A stretch of 64,000 nucleotides of DNA from Cetorhinus maximus (taxonomy: Eukaryota). Positions 2,811-63,073 of the stretch are shown in pieces. Below the pieces are notes generated by a model. That model worked only from the letters and a program-made list of their open reading frames with translations, ran no database searches and was not told where the DNA came from. How positions within the stretch are numbered: position 1 is the stretch's first letter; each line of letters begins with the position of its first letter. The translations under genes were made by a program, and so were the position numbers. The DNA is taken from positions 20,460,001 to 20,524,000 of the forward strand of contig NC_135910.1 in the NCBI RefSeq assembly GCF_964194155.1, given 5' to 3'.

Positions 2811-2899
2811 GAAGTACTCCACCCACAGTGTTACATTGTTGAAGTGGAATATGTTGAAAGAAGGCTAGAAAGAAATGTAACTGCACCACAGTAAATCTT

Positions 2900-3081
2900 A
2901 AGATAAAAGCAAAAATCTGCGGATGCTGGAAATCCAAAACAAAAACAAAAATAAAAATACCTGGAAAAACTCAGCAGGTTCTGTTGATGTCATATGGACT
3001 TGAAACGTTAACTGTGTTCCACTCCGCAGATGCTGTCAGACCTGCTGAGTTTTTCCAGGTATTTTTATTTTTGTTTTTGTT
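2900..3081. mobile_element. Fold-back mini-insertion of Penelope-like element (PLE) 3' ends with central hammerhead-like motif
   Basis: Perfect 14-bp TSD ccacagtaaatctt (2886-2899, 3082-3095). Arms aaaaatacctggaaaaactcagcagg / cctgctgagtttttccaggtattttt are inverted. The sequence matches the PLE ends at 58690-58832 and 62950-63073. Confidence 0.88.
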
Positions 3082-3419
3082 CCACAGTAAATCTTCCCAG
3101 GCTCTTCATTATGTCACCATCGTGGGACAAACCTGGGCAAACATAAGGAATTGTTTGTCCAGGTACTGAGCCAACACAGGCGCATTTGCAGGTCTGTCCT
3201 TCTGACAAAGACATCTGGAACCAACCTACACTGTGCAGGTGGCACTGCCAGTGACAAAGGCATCTTCTCCCTTAACTTTTTATTGCCACCATCCGTAAAG
3301 CATGTGGCACTAATGCCCCGCAGAGAAGATGGCTCTCAAGAAACAAACTAGGGAATCCTTCTTACACTCACCTCATACAGGAGCACTTACCAGCCACAAC
3401 ATGGGTCATGTATGGTATC

Positions 3420-3850
3420 ATGAAGAAGATGGGACTGTTCTCCTTGAACAGGAGAAGGCTGAGAGGAGATTTGATGGAGGTGTTCAAAATCAGGAGGGGG
3501 CTGCAAAGGGTAGACAGGGAGAAACTGTTCCTGCTCATAAAAAAGGTCAAGAACAAGGGGGCACAGGTTTAAAGCGATTTGCAAAAGCAGTAAATGTGAC
3601 ATGAGAAAAACATTTTCACTCAGCAAGTGGTTCGGGTCTGGAATGCACAGCCTGGACGTGTGGTGGAGGCAGGTTCAATTGAGGCATTCAAGAGGGCATT
3701 AGATAACTACTTGAATAGAAGCAATGTGCAAAGATACAGGAAAAAGGCAGGAGAATGGCACTAGGTCATAATGCTCATTCGGAGAGCCGGTGCAGACACG
3801 ATGGGCTGAATGGCCTCCATCTGTGCTGTAACATTCTGTGACTCTATGAT
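3420..3850 (+). mobile_element. CR1/HER1-type LINE 3' fragment
   Basis: Degenerate LFSLEQ-RLRGDL...FTQ-VV-VWN coding remnant; 3' end gatgggctgaatggcctcc..ctgtgctgtaa. Confidence 0.85.
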
Positions 3851-4555
3851 GTCCCAGAGCTGCTGTATTGTGCCCCCCACAATGTGTTTTCTCACGTTCA
3901 ATGGGAAGTCCTTGAATATAGGAGGGGGATAAAAGTGGAGGGATTCCGGGAGGTAGCTGGCCTGATTCCCTAGTCCATCCTCTGACATTCCCACACTATT
4001 GGTAGCTGGGCCTATTGGCGCACCGACAGGGGATGAAGCATATTCTTACTGGAAACTCCTGCCTTCAATAAACTGCAAAGGAATCGTTCCAAATTCATCC
4101 AGCTTCTGATAGCCTTCTTGAAATATTAAATCTGTTCCTCTCCACAGATGCTGTCAAATCTGCTCAGTATTTCCAACACTTTCTGTTTTTATTTCATTTA
4201 ACTTTGGACTGTTGTCATAAGTTTTGTGGGAGACCTTTATCCCACCTGTGGTTATGCTTACCTTGTCAGTATAACTGCCAACTGATGAGCACTAACTGCA
4301 CTTAACAGATTGTGAACTGACGAATTGCTATTTCAAACCAAACCACCCTTAATTAAGATGAATTAGATCTCTGAGAGTGTATCACAAATACTGCTTTATT
4401 ATAGGATCTACAACAAAAATTCGCTGTGGTTTTCACAACTAAACAACCTTGATTCTTGGAGAAGGAATATTTTCCCCTCACCTAAATACTCTTTCCATTT
4501 TCTTTGTGTGGTGGGGATGCTTGATTTAGTGTAAATCAAGTTGAAGGATATCAGT

Positions 4556-4779
4556 AAGATAAATGCAAAATATTGCAGATTTTGGAAATCTGAAACAAAA
4601 ACAGAAAATGCTGGAAAAACTCAGCAGGTCTGGCAGCATCTGTGGAGAGAGAAACAGAGTTAACGTTTTCAAATCCATATGACCTTTCTTCAGATAGACT
4701 CAAAACATTAACTCTGTTTCTCTCTTCACAGATGCTGCCAGACCTGCTGAGTTCTTCCAGCATTTTCTATTTTTGTTGG
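4556..4779. mobile_element. Second fold-back PLE mini-insertion with hammerhead motif on the minus strand
   Basis: Perfect 14-bp TSD tgaaggatatcagt (4542-4555, 4780-4793) and ~75-bp inverted arms. The minus strand at 4658-4694 reads CTGAAGA-aaggtc-atatg-gattt-GAAAAC-GTT. Confidence 0.88.
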
Positions 4780-5427
4780 TGAAGGATATCAGTGTCAGTG
4801 GAGTGCGTTCCCACTTTGAGAAAGTCATGTGAGCGTTTAACATCCCCTTCGTCAGGTCTCCAAACAGACAAACAGTCTTTCCCTTTTCATCCTGACATGT
4901 CCTTCATTATTTTGAAAAGCTGTCTTAACTTTCATCTGCTCCAGTGGGAACTTTTACAATATTTCCTCTTCTCAGAACTCTAGTTCCCCCATTCCTGTCA
5001 TCATGGTGAATCTACACTGTTCATTTCTTCCTGCTTTATTTCTTTCTCTGTGCTCGGTACTGTCACTGTGGCCTCGCTCTTTGCTCTTGCTCTTCCATTG
5101 ATAAAACCCAAAATGTTGCTGGAATTTTATAACTTGATTTGCAGCATTTGCACATGTAAAATGATGTAGTTTACCCGGTGCCTCCCTGCTCTTTCACCAC
5201 CTTTCAGTTGAGCTGATATTCCTATTTTTTCATTTTGCCTCCCACAACTGTGTTGCTTACTTCATTATTTAATAATGTGCAATTAGTGGATCATTGCTTG
5301 TTCTACTAACTTGTCTGGTTTCTCCTGAGGTATTTTGCAGTTCTCACTGTTTAAATCTCCTAACTTTTGTGCCTCAACTAAATTCAATATTGTGCACAAG
5401 CCCAATTCAGCCTCACATTGAGAGGAA

Positions 5428-5629: not shown

Positions 5630-6286
5630 GGGCTGAATTTTCCGTTCGTCGGGCGGGCAGAGCTGACCCAATCGTGGGCCGCGGCGACATTTTACGTGGG
5701 CGGGCCAATTAAGGCCCGCCCAGCGTGACCATCTGCAGGGAAGCTCCCTGTGCGGGCGGGGAGGAAACCCCTAAGATCGAGAGTGCGTTCTTTCACGCCT
5801 GTGCACGAAAGAGCGCACTCAACTCCCTGAGGCTAAGTGCAGCCTCAGGGAGATTGCCTCTACTTTTAAAAATATTAAAAATAGAGAAAAAAAAATTCCC
5901 TTACATGTCCCCTCATGTGACAATGTCACATGAGTTGGGACATGTTCATAATTTACATAACAACTTTATTAAAATTTTTAAAATCCTACATGAAACCTCA
6001 GCCTGCCGGTGGATGAGGTTTCATATTTTTTCTACTTCCCGCTGGGGCTCCAACCCCTTAAGGTTGGACGGGCAGGTCCACTAATTACTTTAATTGATCC
6101 TTTCAATGGCCTCAATTGGCCTTTGACAGGTCGGCGGGCGGACAGCTGATTTTGCTGCACCCTCGCCTTCCTGAAAATTTAAATGGGACGCGGTGACATC
6201 GGGAATTTCGTCCGACGTCATCCCGCGTCACTTTATGTGTCGGCAAGCGGGCCCCGCCCCCACTCGCCGATGGTAAAATCCTGTCC
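5630..6286 (+). mobile_element. ~0.66-kb Harbinger-like MITE
   Basis: Termini gggctgaattttcc...ggtaaaatcctgtcc. Internal hairpins ctccctgaggc/gcctcagggag, ctcatgtgaca/tgtcacatgag and atgaaacctca/tgaggtttcat. Confidence 0.85.
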
Positions 6287-12226: not shown

Positions 12227-12913
12227 GGGGATAATTTTCTCCCTGTTGAGGGGGGGAGGGGGGGTTGGGCGGGAGCGGGCACAGGTGGGTACGCAGCTGA
12301 TTGTTGCCCGTGATTGGCTGCGCGCCACCATTTTAAATGGGCTGGGCAATTAAGTTCTGCCCAGCGTGACGTGCACCCAGAAGCACTGAGCGCTCCCTGT
12401 GCGGGTGGGGGGAGTAGGCTGAGTCAGGGCCTGTGCTCTTTCGTGTGTGCGTGCGAAAGAGCGCAGAAATCTCCCTGAGACACAGAGCTGCCTCAGGGAG
12501 ATTAGTGCGATTTTCTAAAATTTGAATAAAGTCAGTATCACATGAGCTGGGGACATGTCTATGAATTTTATTAAAAATTTCTATTAAACTTTAAAAACCT
12601 TCATGAAATCTCATCCCGCCCGTGGATGAGGTTTCATGATAAATGTGAAGGCCGCCTGGGCTCTTCGCCTGCCCCCCCGCCAACCTTAAGGTTGGATGGG
12701 TGGCTCCATTAATTATTTTAATTGGTATTTAAATGGCCTTAATAGGCCTTTTACAGTTTGGCGGGTGTGCAGCCGACTCCACTGTGCACCCGCTGAACTG
12801 AGGATTGGAATGACGCGCGGTGACATCAGGACACACGCCCAACGTCACCGCGCGTCATTTTACATGTCAGCGAGTGGGGCCCATCCCCACTCGCCAACCC
12901 GAAGATTCTGACC
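12227..12913 (+). mobile_element. ~0.69-kb Harbinger-like MITE
   Basis: Collinear with 5630-6286 and 50469-51159; palindromes ccaaccttaaggttgg and catgaaatctcatcc/ggatgaggtttcatg. Confidence 0.85.
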
Positions 12914-20449: not shown

Positions 20450-23200
20450 TTACAGGATGTGGGTCAGCATTTATTGTCCATCCCTAATTATCCTTGAGCA
20501 GGTGATGGTGAGCTGTCTTCTTGAACCGCTGCAGTCCATGTGGTGTAGGTACACCCACAGTGCTGTTAGGGAGGGAGTTCCAGGATTTTGACCCAGCGAC
20601 AGTGAAGGAATGGCGATATATTTCCAAGTCAGGATGATGAGTGACTTGGAAGGGAACTTCCAGGTGGTGGTGTTCCCATCTATCTGCTGCCCTTGTCCTT
20701 CTAGATGGTGGTGGTTGTGAGTTTGGAAGGTGCTGTCTAAGGAGCCTTGGTGAGTTCCTGCAGTGCATCTTATAGAAGGTACACATCTTATAGAAGGTGC
20801 TGCTACTGTGCGTCGGTGGTGGTGGGAGTGAATGTTGTGGATGGGGTGCCCTTTGTCCTGGATGGTGTCAAGCTTCTTTAGTGTTGTGGGAGCTGCACTC
20901 ATCCAGGCAAATGGGGAGGATTCCATCACATCCTGACTAGTGCCTTATAGCTGGTGGACAGGCTTTGGGGAATCAGGAGGTGAGTTACTTACCACAGGAT
21001 TCCTAGCCTCTGACCTGTTCTTGTAGCCACAGTATTTATATGCCTAGTCCAGTTCAGTTTCTGGTCAGTGGAAACCCCCCCAAGATGTTGATAATGGGGA
21101 ATTTAGTGATGGTAATGTCAATGAATATCAAGGGGCAATGGTTAGATTCTCCTTTGTTGGAGATGGTCATTGCCTGGCACTTGTGTGGTGCGAATGTTAC
21201 TTGTCAGCCCCGAGCCTGGATATTGTCCAGGTCTTGCTGCATTTGGACATGGGCTGCTTCAGCATCTGAGGAGTCGCAAATTGTGCTGAACATTGTGCAA
21301 TCATCAGTGAACATCCCCACTTCTGACCTTATGACGGAAGAGAGGTTATTGATGAAGCAGCTGAAGATGGTTGGGCCGAGGACACTACCCTGATGAACTC
21401 CTGAAGTGATGTCCTGGAGCTATGATTGACCTCTAACAACCACAACCATCTTCCTTTGTGCTAGGTATGACTCCAACCAGTGGAGAGTTTTCCCCCTGAT
21501 TCCCATTGACTCCAGTTTTGCTAGGGCTCATTGATGCCACACTCAGTCAAAAGCGGCCTTGATGTCAAGAGCAGTCACTCTCACCTCACCTCTGGAGTTC
21601 AGCTCTTTTGTCCATGTTTGAACCAAGGCTGTTATGAAGTCAGGGGCTGAGTGGCCCTGGCGGAACCCAAGTAGATGTCAGTGAGCTGGTTATTGCTAAG
21701 CAACTGCCGCTTGATAGCACTGTTGATGACCCTTTACATCACTTTACTGATGATCGAGAGTAGACTGATGGGGTTGTAATTGGCCGGGTTGGATTTGTCC
21801 TGCTTTTTGTGTACAGGACATACCTGGGCAATTTTCCACATAGCCGGGTAGATGCCAGTGTTGTAGCCGTACTGGAACAGCTTGGCTAGGGGCACGGCAA
21901 GTTCTGGAGCACAAGTCTTCAGAACAATTGCCAGGATGTTGTCAGGGCCCATAGCCATTGCAGTTTCCTGTGCCTTCAGTCGTTTCTTGATATCACGAGG
22001 AGTGAATCGAATTGGCTGAAGACTGGCATCTGTGATTCAGGGGACCTCCGGAGGAGGCCGAGATGGATCATCCACTCGGCACTTCTGGCTAAAGATTGTA
22101 GCAAATGCTTCAGCCTTATCTTTCGCACTGATGTACTGGGCTCCCCCATCATTGAGGATGGGGTTATTTGTGGAGCCTCCTCCTCCAGTGAATTGTTTAA
22201 TTGTCCACCACCATTCCCGACTGGATGTGGCAGGTCTGCAGGGCTTAGATCTGATCCATTGGTTGTGAAATTGCTTAGCTCTGTCTATCACTTGCTGCTT
22301 ATGCTGTTTAGCATAAAGTAATCCTGTGTTGTAGCTTCACCAGGTTGACGCCTCATTTTTAGGTATACCTCATGCTGCTTCTGGCATGCCCTCCTGCACC
22401 CTTCATTGAACGAGGGTTGATCCCCTAGGGTGATAGTAATGGTAGTGTGGGGGATATGCCAGGCCATGAGGTTACAGGTTGTGCTTGAGTACAATTCTGC
22501 TGCTGCTGATGGCCCACAGCGCCTCATGGTTGCCCAGTCTTGAGTTGCTAGATCTGTTCGAAAGCTATCCCATTTAGCACAGTGGTAGTGTCACACAACA
22601 CGATGGAGGGTATCCTCAGTGTGAAGGCGGGACTTCGTCTCCACAAGTACAGTGCAGTGGTCACGCCTACCGATACTGTTATGGAGAGATGCACCTGAGG
22701 ATGAGGTCAAGTATGCTTTTCCCTCTTGTTGGTTCCTTCACCATCTGCTGCAGACCCAGTCTAGCAGCTATGTCATTTAGGACTTAGTCAGATCAGTCAG
22801 TAGTGGTACTACCAAGCCACTCTTGGTGATGGACATTGAAGTCCCACACTCAGAATACATTCTGTGCCCTAGCCACCTGCAGTACTTCCTCCAAGTGGTG
22901 CTCAACATGGGGAAGTACTAATTCATCAGCTGAGGGGGTGGACGGGCACGGTACATGTTAATCAGTGGGAGGTTTCCTTGCCCTTGTTTGACCTGATGCC
23001 ATGAGACTTTATGGGGTCCAGAGTCGATGTTGAGGACTCCCAAGGCAGTTCCCTCCCGACCCCATACCACTGTGCCGTACTGGTGGTCTGGGAAATTGTC
23101 TGTAAGGTATGTTACTGTGAGTATGGCTATCAGGCTGTTGCTTGACTAGTCTGTGAAACAGCTCTCCCAATTTTGGCACTAACCCCCAGATGTTAGTAAG
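20450..23200 (-). mobile_element. ~2.75-kb 5'-truncated CR1-superfamily LINE (decayed APE-RT ORF2)
   Basis: GPDNILAIVLKTCAPELAVPLAKLFQ..WKIAQVCPVHKKQDKSNPANY-PISLLSIISKVM and KDKAEAFATIFSQK; 3' tail aattagggatggacaataaatgctg. Confidence 0.95.
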
Positions 23201-23650
23201 GAGTGACTCAATTATCCCCTTTTTAACACAAAGGCACTGAACACACTTGTATGTCTATTACATGGATCATACAACATAGAAAGCGGAAATCCCATGGTCC
23301 GCGTTTATACTCTACACATCTCCTCTCACCCTATCAGTATATCCTTCTATTCATTTCTCCCTTATGTATTTTCTGGTTTCTCCTTAAATATGTGGTAGCA
23401 AATTCTACGTTCTAACCAGACCCAAGGTAAAGAAGTTTCTTGTAAATTCCTTACTAGGTTTATTAGTGACCATCTTATATTTATGGCCTCAGTGTTCCTG
23501 TACATGTGGGAAAGGGAAATCATCCAGGGATTCTGCTTCCAATCAGGACCTAGTGACTCATGCTGTGAAGTATTCACATGTGGAAAAAAGCAGGCTTGGT
23601 TCTTATGCTCTCTAGAGTGAAATGTCCTGCAGACTCTCAGACTCACATCA

Positions 23651-24063
23651 AGTGGTATACAGTCGGGAGGGAGTTGCCCTGGGAGTCCTCAACATTGACT
23701 CCGGACCCCATGAAGTCTCATGGCATCAGGTCAAACATGGGCAAGGAAACCTCCCACTGATTACTACATACTGTGCCCCTCCACCCCCTCAGCTGATGAA
23801 TCAGTGCTCCTCCATATTGAACATCACTTGGAGGAAGCACTGCGGTTGGCTAGAGCACAGAATGGGGTGAGGACTTCAATGTCCATCACCAAGAGTGGCT
23901 CGGTAGCACCACTACTGACCGAGCTGATCAAGTCCTAAATGACATAGCTGCTAGTCTGGGTCTGCGGCAGGTGGTGAGGGAACCAACAAAAGGGAAAAAC
24001 ATACTTGTCCTCATCCTCACCAATCTGCCTGCCGCAGATGTATCGGTCCATGACAGTGTCGGT
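23651..24063 (+). mobile_element. Endonuclease-region fragment of the same LINE family, inverted relative to 22670-23072
   Basis: gggagtcctcaacattgactccggaccccatgaagtctcatggcatcaggtcaaac is the reverse complement of ~22985-23045 with few mismatches. Confidence 0.9.
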
Positions 24064-29710: not shown

Positions 29711-31528
29711 TTAAGACCATAAGACCATAAGACATAGGAACAGAAATTAGGCCATTCGGCCCTCGAGTCTGCTCCGCCATTCAATCATGGCTGATAAGTT
29801 TCTCAACCCCATTCTCCCGCCTTCTCCCCGTAACCTTTGATCACCTTACCAATCAAGAACCTATCTATCTCGGTCTTAAATACACTCAATGACCTGGCCT
29901 CCACAGCCTTCTGTGGCAATGAATTCCATAGATTCACCACTCTCTGGCTAAAGAAGTTTCTCCTCATCTCTGTTCTAAAAGGTCATCCCTTTACTCTGAG
30001 GCTGTGCCCTTGGGTCCTAGTCTCTCCTACTAATGGAAACATCTTCCCCACATCCACTCTATCCAGGCCTTTCAGTATTCTGTAAGTTTCAATCAGATCC
30101 CCCCTCATCTTTCTAAACTCCATCGAGTATAGACCCAGAGTCCTCAAACATTCCTCATATGTTAAGCCTTTCATTCCCGGGATCATTCTCGTGAACCTCC
30201 TCTGGACCCTCTCCAAGCCAGCACATCCTTCCTGAGATACGGAGCCCAAAATTGCTCACAATATTCTAAATGTGGTCTGACTAGAGCCTTATAAAGCCTC
30301 AGCAGCACATCCCTGCTTTTATATTCTAGTCCTCTTGAAATAAATGCCAACATTGCATTTGCCTTCCTAACTACCGACTCAACCTGCAAGTTAACCTTAA
30401 GAGAATCCTGGACTAGGACTCCCAAGTCCCTTTGCACTCCATATTTCTGAATTCTCTCCCCATTTAGAATATAGTCTATGCCTCTATTCTTCCTACCAAA
30501 GTGCATGACCTCACACTTCCCCATGTTGTATTCCATCTGCCACTTCTTTGCCCATTCTCCTAACCTGTCCAAATTCTTCTGCAGCCTCCCCACCTCCTCA
30601 ATACTACCTGTCCCACCACCTATCTTTGTATCATCTGCAAACTTAGCCAGAATGCCCTCAATTCCTTCATCTAGATCATTAATGTATAAAGTGAAAAGTT
30701 GTGGTCCCAACACTGACCCCTGCGGAACTCTCCACTAGTCACCAGCTGCCATCCTGAGAAGGACCCCCTTATCCCCACTCTCTGCCTCCTGCCAGACAGC
30801 CAATCTTCTATCCATGCTAGTACCTTGCCTCTAACGCCATGGGCTCTTATCTTACTGAGCAGCCTTCTGTGCAGCACCTTGTCAAAGACCTTCTGGAAGT
30901 CCAAGTAGATAACATCCATTGGCTCTCCTTTGTCTAACCTACTTGTTACCTTCTCAAAGAATTCTAACAGATTTGTCAGACATGACCTCCCTTTGATGAA
31001 ACCATGCTGACTTTGCCCTATTTTACCATGCACTTCCAAGTATTCTGAAATCTCATCCTTAATAATGGACTCTAAAATCTTACCAACGACCGAGGTCAGG
31101 CTAATTGGCCTGTAATTTCCCGTCTTTTGCCTCACTCCCTTCTTAAACACCATACTCACCTCTGCCCCCCGACTCTATTGAACTTTGGGGATGTTATCGT
31201 GTCTTCCACCGTGAAGACTGACACAAAGTACCTATTCAGTTCCTCCGCCATTTCTTTGTTCCCCACTACTACTTATCCAGCGTCATTTTCCAGCGGCCCA
31301 ATGTCCACCTTTGCCTCTTTCTTACCCTTTATATATCTAAAAAAAACTCTTGCAATCTTCTTTTATATTACTGGCTAGTTTACCCTCATATTTAATCTTC
31401 TCCCTCCTTATTTCTTTTTTAGTTGTCCTTTGTTGGTCTTTATAGTCTTCCCAATCCCCTGGTTTCCCACTGCTCTTCGCCGCATTGTATGCTTTCCCTT
31501 TAGCTTTTATGCTGTCCCTGACTTCCCT
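29711..31528 (-). mobile_element. Relatively young 1.8-kb CR1/HER1-type LINE, 5'-truncated, frameshifted, internal deletion near 31150
   Basis: NYRPISLTSVVGKILE..QHGFIKGRSCLTNLLEFFE..YLDFQKVFDKV..LGPQLFTLYINDL..KFADDTK; 3' tail (TTATGGTC)n read as taagacca repeats at 29712-29732. Confidence 0.97.
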
Positions 31529-38689: not shown

Positions 38690-38872
38690 GCAAAAATAAA
38701 ACCTGAAAACGCTAGAAATATTCAGCAGGTCTGGCAGCATCAGTGGTGAGAGAAACAGAGTTACAGGCCGATGATCGATCTGATGAAGGGTAACTGACCT
38801 GAAACATTAACTCTCTCTCTAGAGGCTGCCTGGCCTGCTGAGAATTTTAGACATGCAGTATTTTGATTTTGC
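38690..38872. mobile_element. Degenerate fold-back PLE end
   Basis: Inverted arms cagcaggtctggcagc / gctgcctggcctgctg around a hammerhead core. Confidence 0.7.
38780..38812 (+). ncRNA. Minimal type I hammerhead ribozyme core (PLE-associated)
   Basis: CTGATGA-AGG-gtaactga-CCT-GAAAC-ATT-aact: canonical core and 3-bp stem II. Stem I appears disrupted. Confidence 0.6.
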
Positions 38873-42069: not shown

Positions 42070-42177
42070 AGGGAGGAAAGGGGATGGTTCCAAGGACAAT
42101 TTATGTCATTTGAGAGTAACTGGTCAAATTAGCCCAGAACTTGCTGGCACCTTACAGTATGAGGGCAGTGTAGTGAT

Positions 42178-42378
42178 CATTGCCACAGAAAGCTATGGAG
42201 GCCAGGTCATTGAGTGTATTTAAGACTGAGATAGATAGGTTCTTGATTGGTAAGGGGATCAAAGGTTACGGGGAGAAGGCGGGAGAATGGGGTTGAGAAA
42301 CTTATCAGCCATGATTGAATGGCGGAGCAGACTCGGTGGGCCGAATGGCCTAATTTCTGCTCCTATGTCTTATGGTCT
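42178..42378 (+). mobile_element. Young CR1 3'-end (~200 bp), same family as 29711-31528
   Basis: Near-identical to the reverse complement of ~29715-29920; tail cctatgtcttatggtc. Confidence 0.95.
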
Positions 42379-43480
42379 AAGGAAATTTTCCTAAAAGCAG
42401 CCTAAACGGACAATAACTAACCTGTATGTAGTGGGCTTGCCTTGTTTTTGTTGGTGCTGTTGAAGAGTCTGTAATGCTAACACTACAAACCACTGAGTGA
42501 GTTCACTATGCTATGAGTCAGGTGTAGGAATGGACTAATTTCTGCAGAATGGTCTTTGATCTGAAACATTAACTGTTTCTCTCTCCACAGATGCTGCCAG
42601 ACCTGCTGAGTGTTTCCAGCATTTTCCATTTTATTTCAGATTTCCAGCATCCGCAGTATTTTGCTTTTTCATTTTGCTGTTGAAAACAGTCAATATTTTC
42701 ATTACTGTTCTGGATATTCCCACTGCCCATCCTGTAAGATATGGAGAACCCCAATCCAAATGGTAGGTGGCACACTTGAGAAGAAGAGACAGCAGCTGAC
42801 AAAGAAAGGGCTGGAGCCTGAGAGAGATGTGAGGTGAAGGGAGAATCAGATACAGGTGAAGGTTCTAGTCAGCTTTCACTGTTTTTGGTAACTTGTGACT
42901 AGGCTGGGTGCTACAATGCCGCCAAGGGCTTTGGCTCAATCCTTGCCCCCTCCCCCACCGCCCCCACCCCTACTGAGGTAGCATGCTTCACTGACACAAA
43001 GTGCTTAACTTTAGTTTAAAAATAAATGTTTATCTTAGTAAAGTGGAAATGGAAATTAAACATCTGTGCCAATGGCTCTTTAACATTGCCATACTTAATG
43101 TCTGTGATGAATGTTTCTGAAACACTGTAAATGTTTTACTATTTACATCTCTAAACAGTTGACAACTCATAGACACATCTCTCTAGATTCCAGGCAGAGT
43201 TCCCTATGCCATAGAAAATGCTAATCACCCAACATTATGCTGTTCCTCATGAGTCACACTTACGTGTCTAAAGCCACTTCCCCGATCCTCAGTGTCGTAA
43301 ATGTGGGGGCCCAACCAACAGACATCCCTGCCCAGATATGGAGCTAAAGACGCAGTAAGTATAAAGGTTTTCATATTGTAGAAGTGAAGCTTAAGGGTGA
43401 GGTAGGTCCCCCCCTCCATGGGCTGCACTCTATGCTGTAAATGCTCAGGGAACAGATGGCAGATTAAACCCTGGAAAATG

Positions 43481-43640
43481 TAAAACAAAAACAAAAATAC
43501 CTGGAAAAACTCAGCAGGTCTGGCAGCATCTGCGGAGAGGAACACAGTTAATGTTTCGAGTCCGAATGACTCTTCAACAGAACTAAGTAAAAATAGAAGA
43601 GAGGTGAAATGTAAGCTGGTTTAAGGGGAGGGTGTAGGTT
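43481..43640 (-). mobile_element. PLE 3' end with hammerhead motif (43546-43584)
   Basis: Minus strand: agtt-CTGTTGA-a-gagtc-attcg-gactc-GAAAC-ATT-aact. Confidence 0.85.
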
Positions 43641-43824
43641 GGTGATGAGCTGTTTGTTTAAGGGAGTCAGTTTTGGTGAATTAAACGCTATGAGCCAGTC
43701 ACTACATTGATGAATGAACCTTATTCTCTGTAGAGCCCAGGGACAACCAGTATCCACTAGGCAGAAAAAGGAGCAGAGCAGCATGATGAGGTCATTCTCA
43801 CTGTCCAAGTCCCCAAACATTCCT

Positions 43825-44552
43825 TCCAAGTGAAACAGCCACTTATTTGTACTTCTTTCTATTTATTATACTGTATTCGCTTTTCACAATGTGGTCTCCT
43901 CTACATGGGGAGGAGGGTGGGGGGAGGGAACCAAACGCAGACTGGGTGACAGCTTTGTGGAACATCTCCACTCAGTCTGTAAACAGGAACTGGGGCTTCC
44001 TGTTGCTTGTCATTTTAATTCTCCACTTGCTCCCACTCTGTCCTTGGCCTGCGACAATGTTCCAATGAAGTTCAACACTAGCTTGAGGACAGCACCTCAT
44101 CTCTTGGCTTGGCACTCTACAGCCTTCTGGACTTATCATTGTGTCACCAGTTTTAGATCATAATCTCTGCCTCCATTTTGTTTCTTTTTTTTTTCTGGTT
44201 TGGTTTTTTCTTGTTTCTTTCTCTGTTCCTCCACTTTGCATTTGGACAGCGGCTATGCAGCCATTCACACTTCATCTGGACACATCTTTACCAAACCCAT
44301 TCTCACTCCCTATGGCTTTTCTACCATAAAAGCTTTTGGCATTTGATCGCTCCTGTCCTTCATCCTATCACAGACCTTCCCTTTTGTTCTTCACTTGTTC
44401 AAAGTCTATGATATTTCTATCTATTCTCAATTCGGACAAAGGATCATCAATATGAAACATTGCCCCTGTTTTCTCACAGATGCTGCCTGACCTGCTGAAT
44501 ATTTCCAGCATTTTCTGTTTTTATTTCAGATTTCCAGCATCTGCACTATTTC
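43825..44552 (+). mobile_element. Decayed PLE 3' portion with GIY-YIG remnant
   Basis: YCIRFSQCGLLYMG..TKRRLGDSFVEHLHSVCKQELGLPVACHFNS; ends in cagatgctgcctgacctgctg..gatttccagcatctgca. Confidence 0.85.
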
Positions 44553-47164
44553 ACTTTTGTCTAACCTTTGCCTGTTGGCCTTTGACACTACAGGTCAGAT
44601 GTGTTAATGGTCCCCAGTGTCTCAGAGTCAATATCTCAGCTTTATAATAACAATTTGCATTTACGCACCATGAGATCCACAAGTTAGCTGATCTAAGCCC
44701 AGGGTATAATTGGAACGCAACAAATGAGCTCAATGATCCTGGGTGAGAAGGGCAGGTAATCAGCCGGGTTTCCTGCTGATGGCCCCTCTCCAGGAATTCC
44801 AGCTGGCAATGATGCTGTGCAGAGGTCATATATGATAAGATGATGGTGACCAAAGAGCTTTGGGACCCACACCGAGTGAACACTTGCCAGTTCATAAGTA
44901 AGAAGGAGGGGGGTGGGGGAGAATAAAAAAGGCCTATGAACTTTTATCATTGGCAAGTCCTCTCCAATTGACTACAAACATGGATACATTTTATTGTTTG
45001 AGTTAAGCCAATAACTAACTGACCTTAATCCTGGAATCTCCACTTTCATGGCTCCAGGTTGGATTCACACCTTCATCTGTTGTTGATCTTGTAATTGCCT
45101 TGTTCATTCCAATTAGGAGCTCAGACTGATTCTGATTAGTCCTCACATTTCTGGTGACAAGAAACCATTTGATGTAAATAGGCATTGGACTTAAAAGTGT
45201 GTATGAGCAGTGTGGACTTCCTGCCAAGCCTCACAAACCTCTTCAAAATTCATCAATTTGTTAACTTCTCTCCCATTTCACTGCAGCTGTAAAGCACCCT
45301 GGGATAGTCTTGTCTCAAAGCCAAATGGAAATTTGGTGGGATTGGACTAGACAGATGATCCAGAAACCAAATAGAAATGGGATTGCCTGGCAGTAGATTT
45401 CAGCCAGTTCTGTTTGGGTCCCCAATTCAATAAACTGCTCCATTAACACGCCTGTGGCCAAAAGGTTTTGGGTGAACAGGTATGAGTTAGTATACAGGCA
45501 GCAGAGTTTTGGATAAACTCAAGTTTATGGAAGATGGGAGGTCTGTCAGGATAACATTGGAATAATCGAGTCTAGAATTAATCAAATCATGGATGAGTGT
45601 TTCAGCAGCAGATGGGCTGAGTCAGGTGATGTTCTGGGGGTGGAAATCGGTGGTCTGGGTGTGGAGTCAGAAGCTCGTCTAAAATGCAACTTCTTGTCAA
45701 GGTTGATTTAGGACATAACATCAAAAGTGAAATATCTCGACATTGCAATTGTGTATGTGGACATTTGCCCCCATTAACACATTCCAGTTGGGGTCACTGG
45801 GCAGTGACCAGGAGCAGGAATGCTGGCTGATTTTTTCACCCCTGCAGCTCAGGAACATGGAGTCCAAATGTACCCCAAGGACAATAATATCACTTGTAGG
45901 AACTCAACTGCTTCCCCAGACTGAAATCAGCCATCTAAATGCAGGACGCAGGTCAAACCTGGGCTCAATATTATAGTTAACTTGCCCATGAACCCATGGG
46001 CGTCACTGCATCATTTATATAACACGATTGCTGTGTTAACAATGTCATCAACCCATCCCATTGCCTCAGTAATGACTGGTATGCAATTTATTGGCAATTT
46101 CAACCTTTGTCTGAATAGCAAATGCAAATCTCTTTCCTGCTGCACTTTATATGATGATCTACACTTCATTTTGTAATCATGTTCGCTGTTTGTAGTGTTT
46201 ATACGCATTAACTAACATTTCTCAACATTAAATGATAATTGTCATTCATCTGCCCAGTTGCTAGGTGACTGCAGGTCTCTCTGAATGATGTCCTTCAGCA
46301 TGGAAAAATGCAAAGGGTTTACTGGGATGCTAATGCAGAAATTAGAAACGGAAATCATTGTATAACAGTGATGTTGGGAACATCTGCAATTCATTCTCGA
46401 ACATCAGTCTAGCCATTCTCAAATTCTTATTTAATGCTCATAATTCACTTGGGAAATTTAAGACTGGTTTCCTTTCAGTTTTAGTTTCAAAGATGGATCA
46501 TGAGAATTATATATTAAAAAAATCATGTACAAGTCACGGAGCCGCAGTGTCTGTAACGCTTCTACTATGCTTCTAGTCCATGAGCAGAGAGAGAGAGGGG
46601 AGGTAATTCTGCGCCTGGAGTGGTGAAAGTGCATCAGAGTTGCAATGGGATCTTGCCCTTCAAAATGCTTTCTTGGTGAGGTCATAGGTCACTATGTTGC
46701 AATTAAAAAATCAAACGAGAAAAGAGTCAGGTCCAACTTGTCCTGTTAATTGGTTATAAATAAGGTTGCAGTTTAAGAGCTGTTGTTATGTAATAGTCTT
46801 AATATGAATAATTAATGCTGCTGGGAAAACTCTATTATAAATATGTTAATTAGACATATTGTCAGTGTTCCTCCACCATGATTAGACTCTTAGAATGCAT
46901 TTATATTCACAACTCTGATGCTGACAATAAACTGTGAATATAAACAAAGTGGCTGTCACAGACAATGTTCAATGCCAAATTGATGGTTTCAAAATCTCTT
47001 CACGCAACAGGTCTGCTACCAACCCCAGTGTCAACTTGGTTCTCGGTAGAATTCTCCTCCTGCAGCAGAAGATTGAGTGCTCAAGACGTAAGCACAGAAT
47101 CTAAGCTAACATTGCAGTGCTGTGCTAAGGGAGGGCTGTTTTATTTTCTCAATGATGAGAGGGT

Positions 47165-50468: not shown

Positions 50469-51159
50469 GAGAAGAACTATCCCCACGTCGGGGGGGAAGT
50501 GCAGGAGTGGGCGCGGGCAGGCGCGCTTCCGATTGGCGCCCCTGATTGGGGGCACGCCGCCATTTTACGTGGGTGGGCCAATTAAGGCCCGTCCAGCGTG
50601 ACGTCCACCAGGAAGTGCTATGCGCTCCCTGTGCGGGCTGGGGGGGGATGGATTCCCTCGGCCGGGAGTGTACTCTTTTGCGCATGCACACGACAGAGCA
50701 CACTCATCTCCCTGAGGCTAAGTGCAGCCTCAGGGAGATCGGCTCGGAATTGAAACTTTGAAAGTAAATGTTGAAAAAATTTCCCTGACATGTCTCCTTA
50801 TGTGACACTGTCACATGAGTTGGAACATGTCCATCACTTTAATTCAAACATTTATTACATTTTTAAAAACCCTCATGAAACCTCATCCCGCCCGTTTTCT
50901 AAAGCCCACCAGGGCTCCCGACCTGCCCGCCAACCCTAAGTTTGGACGGGCAGGTCTATTAATTAAGTTAACAGCTTTTTAAATGGCCTCAATAGGCCGT
51001 TGACAGGTCGGCGGGCGCACAGCTGACTCAGCCCCCGCCAACCTGAAAATGGAGATGACGCGGGGTGACGTTGGGAATTCCGTCCAACATCATCCCGAGT
51101 CATTTTACGTGTCGGCAAGCGAGCCCTGCCTCCCGCTCGCTGACCTAAATATCCTGCCC
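50469..51159 (+). mobile_element. ~0.69-kb Harbinger-like MITE with CAG TSD
   Basis: CAG at 50466-50468 and 51160-51162; collinear with the other copies. Confidence 0.87.
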
Positions 51160-51451: not shown

Positions 51452-51741
51452 GGGTACAGCCTCAGAGTAAAGGGATGACCTTTTAGAACAGAGATGAGGA
51501 GAAACTTCTTTACCCAGAGAGTGGTGAATCTATGGAATTCATTGCCACAGAAGGCTGTGGAGGCCAGGTCATTGAGTGTATTTAAGACCGAGATAGATAG
51601 GTTCTTGATTGGTAAGGGGATCAAAGGTTACGGGGAGAAGGCGGGAGAATGGGGTTGAGAAACTTATCAGCCATGATTGAATGGCAGAGCAGAATCGATG
51701 GGCCGAATGGCCTAATGTCTGCTCCTATGTCTTATGGTCTT
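51452..51741 (+). mobile_element. Young CR1 3'-end (~290 bp)
   Basis: Near-identical to the reverse complement of 29715-30005; tail ctcctatgtcttatggtctta. Confidence 0.95.
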
Positions 51742-55645: not shown

Positions 55646-58214
55646 TGTGAGAGCTCTCTGCTCTTATTCAAATAATATCATTGGATGGAAGCTTTTCAGG
55701 AAAATGGGGCATCAGTTTAATGTTTATTCTCAAGGACAACACCTGTAAGAGAATAACATTATCTCAGTTCTCCTTTGAAGTGGCCTCAATTATATACAAT
55801 ATCTTGAGCCTGTACCTTGGAGGGTGCTACCACTGGGCCAAGCCAATATTTTGATGTTCATTCACTGTGATGTTTAGAATCTGTTAGTATTTGCCCTCTT
55901 TGCTGAGGCATTGAGCTAAACAGACCAGATTCATTCCAGTTTTCATCTCCGGTATTCATCTCAACAAGAACCCCCAGGAAGGTCTAATGATTGGCTCTTT
56001 GCTTGCCCTGCTTTTTGAAGATTTCGATTCTGATTATTACTCATCTAACCCCGTTCCAAAATGGTCAAGTGCAGAATAGACTGGACTGGATTGAATCCCA
56101 GGCCAGAAACTGGACCAGACTGGAATTGACTGGACCAGCCGGAATGGGCTTGACTGGACTGCAGTGGAATGAATTGGATTGGGCCCAACTGTGAGACTTG
56201 AACTGGGTGCTGATGTTCTCGGTCTAGTGTTAAATCATGACCATGTGTTAAAAATCTATTTGAGGAAGGATATGACACTCTTTTGCTGTGCTGGTCAACA
56301 TTCCTCCCTTGTCCAGACACAGGATAAACTGGTCATTCAACTCATTGCTGTTTGTGGAATCTCCCTGCGCTTGGTTAACTCTTGTACTTGCCTACATGGC
56401 ACTTTAAAGTTGTACTTCACTTGTGCAGTACTCGGAGAAGTTTCTGAGGGATGGAATTGTGTGCAGTGCAAAAGCAAGTTATTCCTTCTCACCCTTGGCT
56501 GAGCTAAGGAAACCTGTTTGTGCCAATGGGACTGGGCCCAACTAGAAATTGCTTTGTAAATACTGTGACTTTGCAATTATTTGGTGTGATGTAATGATAC
56601 CACATATTGAGCTGCCTTTTAGACACAAAGTCTGACTACAGCTATAAACATGAGAAAAGGTGCCCCTTGGAAAGAATGTTCATTTAGCAAGAAATTTATT
56701 GTGAAAGTGATACAGTTAACAGGAGAGATGTCAAATGTTTTGAGGTTTGAGACTAGTTTTGACCATTCAGCATAGATTTATTCTCATGTGGGGGCAGAAA
56801 AACATAGAAAAGAAGAGCAAGTCGCTAATTAGCTGGTCTGCCTTTTTCTGCATTTCTATTTTCCCAGGGCATGCATCATTTCCAACCCGATTGTGGATGA
56901 ACAGCCTCCTCTGTTAGCTCGCTCTGCACTGTGCCAAGCTGCACATCGTAAAGAAACATCTTTAAGATTCTCTCCCCTCTCTTTGTGGAGAGGCATCTGG
57001 TGAATAAACTCTGGAACCTGACAGAACGAAGAGAATCACAATCAAAGGAAGAAGGACAAGCCATAAAAAGCCTTTAAAATCTTGCCCTTCTTGACTAATC
57101 GCAACTCCAAACACCTGCCTTCATAACATCCCCGCTTTGCGGTTTCCCATGCTAGACAGCAAGATGTGTCTCTAACGATACAACTCCCTGTTACCTATAT
57201 TTAAATGAGATGAGCCTCTGCTGACCCTAAGTACCTTAATGGTAGAGGTCACGATCCTGCCTTAATTTCTGGGATCGTGGCCCACAGATTTGAAGGTGGG
57301 TCCTTTCCTCGGTGAAACCATTCCCTCCTTGATGGGCAACACCACTTACAAAAGGGGTTTTCACAACCTGGGGGAAGAAGGGAGGCTTTGCAAGACAAAT
57401 GACTGAAAAGTATAAAACAGATTTTGATTTCATCGTTACAGGATAGGAATTTAAGAAATTGGGGATTTGAGCAGTGGGTTCAGGGTGGTGCTAATTATAA
57501 ACATTGTCCATTAGTGTTTCACTATAAGAGCATGAGACAAGACCTATCATTCTTAGGTTGTATGAGCAGCTTCATAACAACCACAACAAAACATCATTTT
57601 GTTTTTCCTTGTCCCTCCTTCTCAGCCCCTGCACCGATGCCTGTGGGGAGTTTCTCTGCAAGGCTGATTTACAGGGTTGAGGTTAAACTGATTGGAAATG
57701 AAAAATGGCCTTTGGAACAGAGAGAAAAAAAACACATCAAAGAGCTGCACATCTTGATAGAGTTGCAATTCTCAGTCCTGAAGGCAAATTTATTAGTGGA
57801 AGCAAATCACATTATATAAAAAATCTAATCTCTTGTTCTTTGTTTTTTCCCTCCTTTCCTGAAGGCACTGCTTTCTCATTGGGCAGGAGTTCCAGCAGCC
57901 CACTGATCATTTTGGCAGCAAATAAAATCATACTCACCAAAATGAAGCACTTCCTGATTTGAATATTTGAAAAGGTGTGAATGTTTTGAAGGCAAAGGTG
58001 CAAACGATTATTTCGCTATCTGTAATTCAAATTAGCAGAAGATTTTTTATAAACTGAAGCTGATTAGCATGTCTGACTTAAATAAAATGTGAAGTTTCCT
58101 GAAAGTCTGTTTCTTTCTTGACATTTGAAAGCTATGGTTTAATTCCCTCACATTTTCTCCTTTCCTCCCTTGAAGACATTGACTGAATGGGTTCATGATC
58201 TAAAATTGTTGAGC

Positions 58215-58832
58215 TCAATATTCAGCCCGGAAGGCTGTAAAGTGCCTAGTCAGAAGATGAGGTGCTGTTCCTCCTCTCTCTCTCTGAACTCTCTCCTGCA
58301 TCCCCACTCCCTTTCCGATCCCCCTTTTTTCCAATAATTTATATAGCTTTTTCTTTTCCCACCTATTTCCATTATTTTTAAATGTATTTCCATCCATTGT
58401 TTTATCTCTGCCCTCTGCCTTTTAGCCTATTTTGATCCCTTCCCCCCAGCCAACCCCCACTAGGGCTATCTGTACCTTGCTCGTCCTGCTTTCTACCCTT
58501 AATGTCACCTATTAGCACATATCTTAGCTAATGTCACCACCGTCAACACCTCTTTGTCCTTTTGTCTATGACATCTTTGGCAATCTCTTCTTTGCCTCCA
58601 CCAATCACTGGCCCTCTATCCAGCTCCACTTGTTCCACCCCCTCCCCCCCTTAAACCAGCTTATATTTCACCTCTCTTCTATTTTTCCTTAGTTCTGTTG
58701 AAGAGTCATACGGACTTGAAACGTTAACTGTGTTCTCCTCTCCGCAGATGCAGTCAGACCTGCTGAGTTTTTCCAGGTATTTTTATTTTTGTTTTTATTT
58801 TGGATTTCCGGCATCCGCAGTTTTTTGCTTTT
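58215..58832 (+). mobile_element. PLE 3' UTR/pLTR with hammerhead motif (58691-58729)
   Basis: Homologous to the reverse complement of 61390-61850; agtt-CTGTTGA-a-gagtc-atacg-gactt-GAAAC-GTT-aact. Confidence 0.88.
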
Positions 58833-59559
58833 ACCTCAGAAATGAGTATGTATCTGGCTCACATTGCTACCTGGGCTCTGCTGTGTGTTGTGACTCCAGT
58901 TGGAGTGATTCATCTCCAGGGTTTGCTCACCAGTGTCTGGGAGATTCATCTACAATTCCAGGAGACTCCAGGAGGGTTGGCAACACCACTTCCAACAGCA
59001 GTAATGTTCTGAATATAAATCAAGGTGCAAATGGCATTGTGCACTCTTCACTCTTTTACTACATTTGTAAAAGTCTGAATGAAAGGTTCCACCTGAAAAC
59101 GTAACCCATATTTCCTTTACATTTGTTGACTTGTTCTGCACACTAAATATGTCCGGTTTCAGATTGCCAGTGCCTGTGATTTTGCCTGCTAGTTCTAAGT
59201 GTTGTTTTATCTTCTTGCTCTGCAGGCTGAATCAAGGAAGTTGAGGAAGAATAATAGCCTGCCATGCCTGAGTTGACGTGCTAGACTCATTAACGCTCAT
59301 CCTATACCTAGCTCAAGGTGTGGAAGTCTGAAATGAGATGCGAATTGCTGCTTTTTCAGCTAAGACCTGCTGTTGATTTGGGACATAGTGTAATGCTGCT
59401 TTCATGTCAGCTCCTGTTTTAGTTAAATCACCTGATTTATGCCCTGAAGCTGGTTCACAACCGAGATGTTGCGCATTATGCAGGCGGACGTGCATTGTGC
59501 ATGTGCACTTTGTTCAAAGTCACATGCACGGCTTCATAAGCCTGGGCATAGGACCTTCT

Positions 59560-61350: not shown

Positions 61351-63073
61351 TGTGGAGAGAAAGACAGAGTTAACGTTTTGACTCTTCTTCAGAGCTAAAG
61401 GGAAGTAGAAATGTGGTGAAATTTATACTGTTTAAGGGAGGTGCAACAGGTGAAGCTGGATAGAAGGCCAGCGATAGCTGGAGGCAAAGGAGAGATTGCA
61501 AAAGATGTCATAAACAAAAGGCCATAGTGGTGGTACTGGCTAAAGGAGGTGCTAATGGTGACATTAAGAGTGGAATGCAGAATGTGATAATGGCAGGACC
61601 AGGGTAAGCACTCTGGAAAGTGACAGATGGCCCGAGTGAGGGTGGGGTGAGAGGAGGGGATGGTGGTGGGAAAAAATATTGAAAAGGCTAAAAGCTGGGG
61701 ATAAAACAATGAATAAAAATGGAAATAAATTTTTAAAAATAACAATAATAAAAATAAGTGGGTAAAAAATAGATAAATAAATAAAGTTTACAAATAAAAA
61801 TGAATGTAGAGAAAAGGGGGGATCAAAAAGGGGTGGGGATGGAGGAGAGAGTTCATGGTCTGAAGTTGTTAAGTCTGGAAGGTTGTAAAGAGCCTAATTG
61901 GAAGATGAGGGGCTCGTTGCTGTTCCTCCAGTTTGCGTTGAGCTTCACTGGAACATTGCAGCAGGCCAAGGATGGACATGTGGGCATGAGAGCAGGGTGG
62001 AGTGTTGAAATGGCAAGTGACAGGGAGGTCTGGGTAATGCTTGTAGACAGACCGAAGGTGTTCCGCAAAGCGGTCACCCAGTCTGCGTTTGGTCTCCCCA
62101 ATGTAGAGGAGACCACATTGGGAGCAGCGAATGCGATAGACCACACCCACTGTCGGCATTCCGTCGGGACCATTCCCTCTGGGTCACTCCTCCATCACCC
62201 CCAACCCCTCTCACAGCACCTTCCCATGCAATCGCAGAAGGTGCAACACCTGCCCCTTTACCTCCTCCCTCTTCACCATCCAAAGGCCCAAACACTCCTT
62301 TCAGGTGCAGCAGTGCTTCACTTGCACTTCCCTCAATTTGGTCTACTGCATTCGCTGCTCCCAATGCGGTCTCCATCGCCGAGGCGTAAAATGACATAGG
62401 GTGATGTCGGGCATGTGCACCCCCTGAACTGTCAAAAGCCTATTAAGGCCATTTAAAAAGGCAATTAAGCAATTACCTGAGCTGCCCGTCCAACCTTAAG
62501 GTTGGCGGCAGGCGAAGAGCCCAGGCGACCTTCACATTTTTCATGGAACCTCATCCACGGGCGGGATGAGATTTCATGAATAATTTTAAATTTTCACACA
62601 AATTTTTATTAAAATTAATGCACATTTCCCAGCTCATGTGGCAGTTTCACATGAGGGGACATGTCATAAAAATTATTTCTCCACTTTATTAACCTTTTAA
62701 AACTTTTCTCCCTGAGGCACCAAAAGAGCACACTCCCGACTCAGGCAGCCTCCCCCCTCCCCCTGCCCGCACAGGGAGCACCTAGTGCTTCCGGGTGTGC
62801 ATCACACTGGGTGGGCCTTAATTGGCCCGCCCACATAAAATGGCGGCGTGGACCCAATCGGGAGCGCTGATCGGGTCTGTGCCCGCCCCCGCACAATCCC
62901 GACAGGGGGAAATTCTACCCTATATATTTCACCACATTTTTACTTCCCTTTAGCTCTGAAGAGCCATACAGACTCGAAACGTTAACTCTGTCTTTCTCTC
63001 CACAGATGCTGTCAGTCTTTCCAGCATTTTTTGTTTTTGTTTCAGATTTCCAGCATCCGCAGTATTTTGCCTT
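61351..63073. mobile_element. Penelope-like element with inverted arrangement and GIY-YIG remnant, inserted in CR1
   Basis: Minus arm: VVYRIRCSQCGLLYIGETKRRLGDRFAEH..HFN. Plus arm: AFRRDHSL..FPCNRRRCNTCP..FTCTSLNLVYCIRCSQCG (Cys-rich linker). TSD catcct(g/a)gtaaatc at 61337-61350 and 63074-63087. Confidence 0.92.
62376..62920 (-). mobile_element. Harbinger-like MITE, one end truncated, nested in the PLE
   Basis: Contains ccaaccttaaggttgg and catggaacctcatcc/ggatgagatttcatg; intact end ggggaaattctaccc. Confidence 0.85.

What the first reader, a model, noticed from the sequence alone, without database searches (positions are those of the whole stretch)
2886..4793. Fold-back ~200-bp hammerhead-bearing mini-elements, each with a perfect 14-bp TSD
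Seen: two independent inserts (2900-3081 and 4556-4779) both start aagataaa-gcaaaa. Each consists only of two inverted PLE 3' ends with a hammerhead-like motif in the loop and is flanked by an exact 14-bp direct repeat. The large PLE at 61351-63073 also has a 14-15-bp TSD, and a decayed third hairpin lies at 38690-38872. Established: PLEs carry minimal hammerheads and often insert with inverted ends. Inference: these are either a stereotyped abortive PLE integration product whose junction falls at the ribozyme, or a non-autonomous, retrozyme-like hairpin family in sharks.
Basis: partly seen in the sequence, partly recalled or inferred. Interest (0 to 1): 0.7.

Follow-up and report, generated by a model that had tools for sequence, protein, structure and literature searches.

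The report
Double-primed Penelope stubs ending at promoter
These 200-base mirror-image insertions are real and very common in this genome, but they are the shortest products of a known kind of jumping gene (Penelope-like), each likely built afresh when both cut DNA strands copy the element's RNA up to its predicted start, so they hint at how this poorly understood class inserts rather than being a new self-spreading ribozyme element.

Summary
In detail: inserts 2900-3081 and 4556-4779 are head-to-head pairs of Penelope-like element (PLE) ends with exact 14-bp TSDs. They are not a hairpin family. Such fold-backs occur at about 16 per Mb (19 in 1.18 Mb of random tiles). All 33 short ones examined have different junctions, arm length runs from 20 nt to kilobases, and the two arms of one element resemble each other more than other elements (92% vs 86%). 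TSDs span 9-21 bp, mode 14-15. One arm carries the PLE tail and the other lacks it (20 of 22; 0 of 49 partners tailed), and either arm can be longer, which fits priming from both target nicks. Junctions avoid the hammerhead cleavage site (1 of 90 tail arms) and pile up 5-37 nt upstream, with a sharp genome-wide edge at the first bases of stem I, about 30 nt behind a TATA-like word: a predicted transcription start. The hammerheads in both inserts are broken. The layout is published; I did not find the end statistics in print. This scan noted the same pattern in this and other genomes.

The parts
2886..2899 (.). Insert 1, left copy of 14-bp target-site duplication
   Evidence: Exact repeat of 3082-3095
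2900..2979 (-). Insert 1, tail-bearing PLE arm; covers +102 back to about +30 relative to the hammerhead cleavage site, so no hammerhead
   Evidence: 95% to the window copy at 58758-58836
2978..3081 (+). Insert 1, tail-less PLE arm; begins at -33 (2-nt overlap with the left arm), the commonest genome-wide 5' end
2978..3013 (+). Insert 1, damaged minimal hammerhead: core CUGUUGA, 2 nt of stem II lost; cleavage position would be 3009/3010
   Evidence: alignment; fold does not give the hammerhead stems
3082..3095 (.). Insert 1, right TSD copy
4542..4555 (.). Insert 2, left copy of 14-bp TSD
   Evidence: Exact repeat of 4780-4793
4556..4694 (-). Insert 2, tail-bearing PLE arm, +102 back to about -31; holds hammerhead core and stem II but not the 5' strand of stem I; cleavage position would be 4662/4661
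4694..4779 (+). Insert 2, tail-less PLE arm, about -16 to +67; only the 3' half of the hammerhead, decayed
4780..4793 (.). Insert 2, right TSD copy
38690..38872 (.). Older decayed fold-back of the same design: tail-less arm on the left (38694-38763, minus), arm from about -33 with tail remnant on the right; no TSD above chance
61351..63073 (.). Long member of the same class: inverted tail-less arm 61351-62143 (minus), sense arm 62150-62373 and 62928-63073 with tail, unrelated repeat in between; 15-bp TSD with one mismatch
58299..58836 (+). Longer PLE 3' end of insert 1's subfamily; shows the full hammerhead frame and the TATA-like and initiator-like words upstream

Best explanation
Each insert is a pair of short, head-to-head copies of the end of an abundant Penelope-like retroelement, likely made in one integration event in which both nicked target strands prime reverse transcription, and likely short because copying runs off at the predicted 5' end of the element's RNA. 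[quoted passage not shown] Inferred: (1) the endonuclease nicks both strands about 14-15 nt apart; (2) one nick primes at the tail start site, the other at the upstream site, helped by 1-5 nt of target-RNA pairing; (3) both cDNAs use the same or a sister uncleaved RNA; (4) the RNA starts at the first base or two of hammerhead stem I, so cDNAs started at the cap-proximal copy of the start sites cannot exceed about 100 and 136 nt; (5) the two cDNA ends are joined by end joining or a short snap-back, often with templated filler. The products lack the promoter and an intact ribozyme and are likely dead on arrival.
For: Tail asymmetry: 20 of 22 inverted pairs in random tiles have one tailed and one tail-less arm (hand classification; p=6e-5 against independent choice); 0 of 49 partners of tail-anchored arms are tailed; 15 of 15 perfect-palindrome loci likewise. 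The tail-less arm reaches further 5' in 38 of 69, the tailed arm in 10, within 5 nt in 21; in those 38 neither arm is contained in the other, which one folded-back strand cannot give. Arm 5' ends are correlated (rho 0.67, n=69; 0.72 for the 19 with both ends upstream of the ribozyme), median offset 29 nt, close to the distance between start sites. Arms of one element are 92% alike against 86% between elements (n=37, p=9e-9). End rate 0.018 per nt at 0..-37 against 0.0012-0.0027 elsewhere (90 loci). Genome-wide exact counts of a non-templated-type base just 5' of each position, one subfamily: -31: 396, -32: 483, -33: 873, -34: 508, -35: 104; second subfamily -34: 1923, -35: 275. TATA-like word 27-32 nt upstream in 27 of 40 long copies. 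Element end overlaps the TSD by 3 nt or more in 23 of 52 against 6% expected. Published in vitro data on an anole PLE: both strands cut and extended, two RT start sites bounding the tail, predicted dimer, ribozyme cleavage not needed (PMC11167929).
Against: No RNA data: the transcription start is read from DNA ends and motif spacing only. The extra-G signal expected from a cap is present (61 of 100 at -35 against 30 and 29 of 100 at control positions, hand counts, p about 2e-5) but 3 of 4 G loci inspected can be explained by templated re-priming, and in the second subfamily a palindrome confounds it. Short copies do not show more read-through into the ORF leader than long ones (14 of 50 vs 14 of 37 with 3 nt or more, p=0.36), so use of the cap-proximal start sites is not confirmed. 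The peak is at -33 rather than at the A of the initiator-like word (-34). Most 5' ends lie inside the zone, not at its edge, so trimming or stalling must be added. The TSD finder tolerates mismatches and may inflate the overlap figure. The motif conservation is among related copies. The anole study reports initiation without target homology.
Confidence: 0.7

Rival explanations
1. Same double-primed PLE products, but copying stops in this zone because RT stalls at the folded or protein-bound hammerhead, not because the RNA starts there.
For: 44 of 90 tail arms end across the whole core (-37..-5), not only at the edge. The anole protein binds the region that holds the ribozyme and assists its cleavage (PMC11167929). 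The test for use of the cap-proximal start sites was negative.
Against: A five- to seven-fold drop within one base at -34/-35 in two subfamilies; TATA-like word at promoter spacing; the RNA fold here is no more stable than shuffles (z 0.09).
Confidence: 0.17
2. Self-priming or fold-back of a single strand (the published reading of inverted PLE junctions) makes the second arm as a copy of the first.
For: 21 of 69 junctions are near-symmetric and arm ends are correlated; 97 exact 30-bp palindromic junctions exist genome-wide; snap-back filler is seen at junctions. PMC3846280 proposes self-priming (passages).
Against: In 38 of 69 elements the tail-less arm reaches further 5' while the other arm alone has the tail, so neither can be a copy of the other. 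A snap-back may still serve as the joining step after double priming.
Confidence: 0.07
3. A non-autonomous, retrozyme-like or MITE-like hairpin family that copies itself as a unit.
For: Tens of thousands of similar-sized fold-backs with TSDs; one junction recurs exactly in 97 loci.
Against: 33 of 33 short elements have distinct junction signatures; sizes are continuous with kilobase elements; arms match within elements, also in the recurrent-junction class (0.896 within vs 0.85-0.86 between, n=10 of 15 loci with both arms long, p 0.03-0.05), whose tail-less ends vary; no head-to-tail array; ribozymes in both inserts are broken.
Confidence: 0.04
4. The 5' edge marks a splice acceptor (pyrimidine tract plus AG at -34/-33), as the D. 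virilis Penelope intron ends at hammerhead helix I; short copies come from spliced RNA.
For: The sequence looks like an acceptor; the D. virilis coincidence is published (PMC4209133).
Against: The acceptor predicts ends at -32 followed by a shared first exon. Counts peak at -33/-34, and the 15 junction loci among 30 inspected show TSD, inverted arm or private filler upstream, no shared exon.
Confidence: 0.02

Closest known systems
Insertion units of endonuclease-positive PLEs: inverted 5'-truncated copy, 30-40-bp tail at one end, TSD (Craig 2021 PMC8557442, passages; Arkhipova 2013 PMC3846280, passages)
   Same: Head-to-head inverted ends, tail on one end only, TSD around the whole unit, hammerhead in the pLTR, RT plus GIY-YIG parent.
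   Different: Here both arms are usually cut to under 140 nt, so the whole unit is about 200 bp; TSD 14-15 bp against 8-10 bp in Adineta; the published explanation is self-priming, which the arm containment data contradict as sole mechanism.
Anole Poseidon PLE in vitro (Frangieh 2024 PMC11167929, parts 1-3 of 4 read)
   Same: Two RT start sites bounding the tail, both target strands cut and extended, uncleaved RNA as template.
   Different: That study does not link the two sites to the two arms of inverted copies, does not map a transcription start, and reports no target homology; the element here has a Neptune-type linker and 1-5 nt overlaps at the start sites.
Minimal hammerheads of metazoan PLEs (Cervera and de la Pena 2014 PMC4209133, parts 1-2 of 4 read)
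   Same: Short helix I, extra base between positions 9 and 10.1, palindromic 15.2-16.2, mostly scattered short copies; opposite-strand pairs 100-700 bp apart noted in Schistosoma.
   Different: No explanation there for why short copies start at the ribozyme; the inserts here carry broken motifs.
LINE-1 twin priming, 5' inversions (recalled, no call read the original paper)
   Same: Second target nick primes a second cDNA, giving an inverted segment inside one TSD.
   Different: In L1 the second priming site is internal and variable and the two segments barely overlap; here it is mostly fixed about 36 nt from the first and the arms overlap almost fully.
Non-LTR retrozymes (Li, Clavereau, Pollet 2026 bioRxiv 10.64898/2026.07.22.740005, parts 1-2 of 5 and passages; PMC7229834 search listing only)
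   Same: Non-coding, PLE-derived, type I hammerhead.
   Different: Retrozymes are head-to-tail arrays with an intact ribozyme per unit; these are single inverted pairs with broken ribozymes.

Membership tests
Endonuclease-positive PLE insertion | Parent element with RT and C-terminal GIY-YIG endonuclease colinear with this 3' end | tested here: met
   Long copies L217, L225, L229 carry RT then endonuclease upstream of the same end. Pfam RVT_1 E 5.8e-5 and GIY-YIG E 0.011, both below curated cut-offs on decayed pieces.
Endonuclease-positive PLE insertion | pLTR sequence repeated at both ends of the ORF | tested here: met
   L229 has inverted arm, partial pLTR with tail, ORF, pLTR; L199, L215, L222 read on past the tail into the same leader.
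Endonuclease-positive PLE insertion | 30-40-bp tail, often at one end only | tested here: met
   Two 3' ends at about +67 and +102; 20 of 22 pairs asymmetric.
Endonuclease-positive PLE insertion | Inverted 5'-truncated copy and TSD | tested here: met
   49 of 90 tail-anchored copies inverted; TSD above control score in 63 of 109 elements.
Neptune clade | CX2-5CxxC linker between RT and endonuclease | tested here: met
   C-X4-C-X2-C in L217; definition from PMC8557442 passages. The motif is shared with Nematis.
Neptune clade | RT phylogeny groups with Neptune | not tested
   No reference PLE proteins were fetched and no tree was built.
Minimal hammerhead of PLEs | Core, helix II with G10.1-C11.1, extra base 9/10.1, 4-5 bp helix I, palindromic 15.2-16.2 | tested here: met
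   Met in longer family copies; not met in the two inserts, which lack part of stem II or the 5' strand of stem I. Rfam finds no hammerhead in the window.
Minimal hammerhead of PLEs | Self-cleavage | not testable with these tools
   Needs an RNA assay; genomic 5' ends show no peak at the cleavage site.
Non-LTR retrozyme | Head-to-tail tandem units each with a complete type I hammerhead | tested here: not met
   Inserts are single inverted pairs with broken motifs.
Non-LTR retrozyme | Circular RNA product | not testable with these tools
   No raw RNA reads were offered.
Self-propagating non-autonomous family (MITE-like) | Copies share one internal junction, size and arm-specific variants | tested here: not met
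   33 of 33 distinct junctions; arms group within elements.

The most novel reading that the evidence does not exclude
PLEs integrate by concerted double target-primed reverse transcription: a dimer nicks both strands 14-15 nt apart and copies one RNA from two fixed start sites at once. The transcript begins exactly at the hammerhead, so the tens of thousands of stubs are integrated strong-stop-like cDNAs, and a jump from this 5' end to the 3' pLTR would be how the element regains its promoter. That would explain the inverted pLTR, the one-sided tail and the flood of solo minimal hammerheads in animal genomes with one mechanism.
Probability: 0.35. Interest if true: 0.68.

Novelty: new member of a known kind. 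Interest (0 to 1): 0.42.

Why it matters
How PLEs integrate, why their ends are inverted, and what the hammerhead does are open questions in the papers read. A genome with tens of thousands of short two-armed insertions turns these into countable predictions: one arm per start site, nick spacing of 14-15 nt, an uncleaved template, and a transcript starting at the ribozyme's first bases. Each is testable with the existing in vitro PLE system and with 5'-end RNA data. The object itself is an ordinary dead retroelement product, and any RNA-family or microRNA-like hits on these hairpins are artefacts.

Tried and rejected
Rfam scan of the window: only sub-threshold microRNA-like hairpin hits on the inserts, no hammerhead family. 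The search with insert 2 as query (30 loci) is biased to look-alikes and was kept out of all statistics. Empty sites: none found. Contigs of a related organism, about 7% diverged in the flank, run from unique flank into insert 2 (32 nt left, 41-46 nt right) and 28-29 nt into insert 1, just under the tool's 31-nt bridging rule, so both insertions appear to predate that split. Expression: no RNA holder listed; one guessed RNA run gave only contigs, uninformative on start sites or circles. Cap-derived G: suggestive only. Test for use of the cap-proximal start sites by read-through: no difference. First within/between distance for the palindromic class was spoiled by flank sequence in truncated arms and redone on 10 of 15 loci. 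Stem-annealing as the joining rule: of 33 short junctions 9 show overlap, 3 are blunt, 9 have 1-3 extra bases and 12 have 9 or more, often matching nearby element sequence; no single rule. PDB search with the endonuclease piece gave nothing relevant; the Atlas gave no result. Rows dropped: L105, L113, L204 from the arm correlation (ambiguous chaining); L199, L215, L222 from TSD and read-through counts (tail not terminal); four tandem near-duplicate sites and the last listed sites were not fetched. Literature searches for twin priming, dimer structure, shark PLEs, start sites or strong-stop, and self-priming found no paper that ties the two start sites to the two arms or maps a start at the hammerhead; the library lacks most subscription papers and Repbase, and no supplements were read (those of PMC11167929 show genomic ends and may bear on this).

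Full report
Observation. Both inserts are present as described, each inside an exact 14-bp direct repeat. Control searches with mismatched flanks never scored above 8 in 109 trials. The long element at 61351-63073 has a 15-bp repeat with one mismatch; the hairpin at 38690-38872 has none above chance. Positions below are counted from the predicted hammerhead cleavage site (GUU/AAC; +1 is the first base after it). Insert 1 has a tailed arm from +102 to about +30 and a tail-less arm from -33 to +68. Insert 2 has a tailed arm from +102 to about -31 and a tail-less arm from about -16 to +67. Neither holds an intact hammerhead.

Parent element. A 33-nt tail word occurs 6,021 times exactly. I fetched 90 of the first 100 listed sites, chosen without regard to what lies upstream. 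Long copies among them carry RT followed by a GIY-YIG-like domain with a C-X4-C-X2-C linker (Pfam RVT_1 E 5.8e-5, GIY-YIG E 0.011, both under cut-off), the Neptune-type arrangement described in PMC8557442 (passages). L229 shows the published layout: inverted arm, partial pLTR, ORF, pLTR, all within a 15-bp TSD. Longer copies show a minimal hammerhead with the features listed in PMC4209133.

Abundance. In 118 random 10-kb tiles there are 104 arms and 22 head-to-head pairs, 19 of them 350 bp or shorter. That is 16 per Mb, or about 64,000 in the genome (Poisson range 39,000-100,000, if tiles from the large contigs are typical).

Not a family. All 33 short inverted elements in the tail-anchored set have different junction signatures, and total lengths run from about 120 bp to 4 kb. 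The two arms of one element are 92% alike, against 86% for arms of different elements (37 elements, p 9e-9). The best candidate for a family is a perfect 30-bp palindromic junction found at 97 loci. In the 15 inspected, the tail-less ends vary widely, and arms still match within elements (10 loci with two long arms, 0.896 vs 0.85-0.86). TSDs above the control score were found in 63 of 109 elements, 9-21 bp, mean 14.0, with the same centre in short inverted, long inverted and solo copies.

Two start sites, one per arm. Arms end at about +67 or +102. In the tiles 20 of 22 pairs have one tailed and one tail-less arm, one has two tails, one has none (hand reading; p 6e-5). No partner of 49 tail-anchored arms has a tail; 36 end at +55..+80 and 13 are shorter. 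The tail-less arm reaches further 5' in 38 of 69 elements, the tailed arm in 10. In those 38 neither arm is contained in the other, so one strand folding back on itself, the reading offered in PMC3846280 (passages), cannot be the whole story; two primings are needed. This matches the anole PLE, which cuts and extends both strands and starts at two sites that bound the tail (PMC11167929). The arms' 5' ends are correlated (rho 0.67; 0.72 in the 19 long cases) with a median offset of 29 nt, as if both cDNAs grew together. Element ends overlap the TSD by 3 nt or more in 23 of 52 cases against 6% by chance, with the caveat that the TSD finder tolerates mismatches.

Where copying ends. Only 1 of 90 tail arms and 1 of 49 partner arms end within 3 nt of the cleavage site; 44 of 90 end between -37 and -5. 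The end rate there is 0.018 per nt against 0.0012-0.0027 on either side, in solo and inverted copies alike (19 of 39, 26 of 49). The template was therefore uncleaved, as in the anole study. Genome-wide counts of a transversion-type base just 5' of each position show a sharp edge: 396, 483, 873, 508 and 104 for ends at -31 to -35 in one subfamily (508 of 7,724 against 104 of 5,864) and 1,923 against 275 for -34 and -35 in another. Denominators were measured only for the -34 and -35 counts of the first subfamily. The edge is the start of hammerhead stem I, inside an initiator-like word, with a TATA-like word 27-32 nt upstream in 27 of 40 long copies (motif definitions recalled). Insert 1's right arm starts at -33. 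I read the edge as the transcription start. Against this: the G excess expected from a cap (61 vs 30 and 29 per 100) is often explainable by templated filler; short copies show no extra read-through into the leader; no RNA data were available. A splice-acceptor reading fails because no shared exon lies upstream. Stalling at the protein-bound ribozyme remains the main rival.

Joining. Among 33 short junctions, 9 overlap, 3 are blunt, 9 have 1-3 extra bases and 12 have longer filler, often matching nearby element sequence. This fits end joining or short snap-backs; it does not single out one.

Age. Contigs of a related organism enter both inserts from unique flank, so they appear fixed and older than a split of about 7% flank divergence. 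No empty site was seen.

Comparison and verdict. The object is a member of a known kind, the complex insertion unit of endonuclease-positive PLEs, at its short extreme. It is not a retrozyme. Eight literature searches found the layout and the two start sites in print but not the one-arm-per-site rule or the start-site edge; the library is incomplete. After forming this reading I looked at the scan's earlier notes: 156 findings in at least 21 genomes hold the search words and several reach the same reading; they are unchecked and not independent support. Interest 0.42: ordinary as an object, useful as a quantitative handle on an open mechanism.

Noticed in passing
window 58692-58836, 43471-43631, 2978-3013; L055, L066, L074, L085: One PLE subfamily carries CUGUUGA and another CUGCCGA in place of the hammerhead core CUGANGA, with the rest of the motif kept.
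   Followed up: no
window 22696-24019: Inverted pair of about 370-bp arms (87-91% complementary); the right arm translates to an endonuclease-reverse-transcriptase-like piece (Pfam Exo_endo_phos_2, E 2e-4), so probably an inverted LINE fragment pair; no TSD found.
   Followed up: partly
window 62374-62927; similar at 5676-6144, 12270-12767, 50504-51021: An unrelated dispersed repeat sits inside the long PLE and replaces about 800 nt of it.
   Followed up: no
window 43471-44565 and 58191-58836: Two further long PLE copies with inverted 5' arms, older, no TSD detected.
   Followed up: partly
window 4117-4199 and 42541-42668: Solo PLE stubs, one tail-less and one tailed, the second starting near -33.
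   Followed up: partly
window 29760-30009, 42177-42335, 51452-51701: A young 250-bp repeat, 97-98% alike between copies.
   Followed up: no
L105, L205, L209: Junctions with 46-99 nt of filler made of repeated back-and-forth copies of element sequence, suggesting several re-priming rounds.
   Followed up: partly
L199: A copy that begins exactly at the upstream start site (+68) and reads on through the tail into the ORF leader.
   Followed up: no
L020-L022: Three loci with identical insert and flanks, two on one contig and one on a small contig: segmental duplication or assembly duplicate.
   Followed up: no
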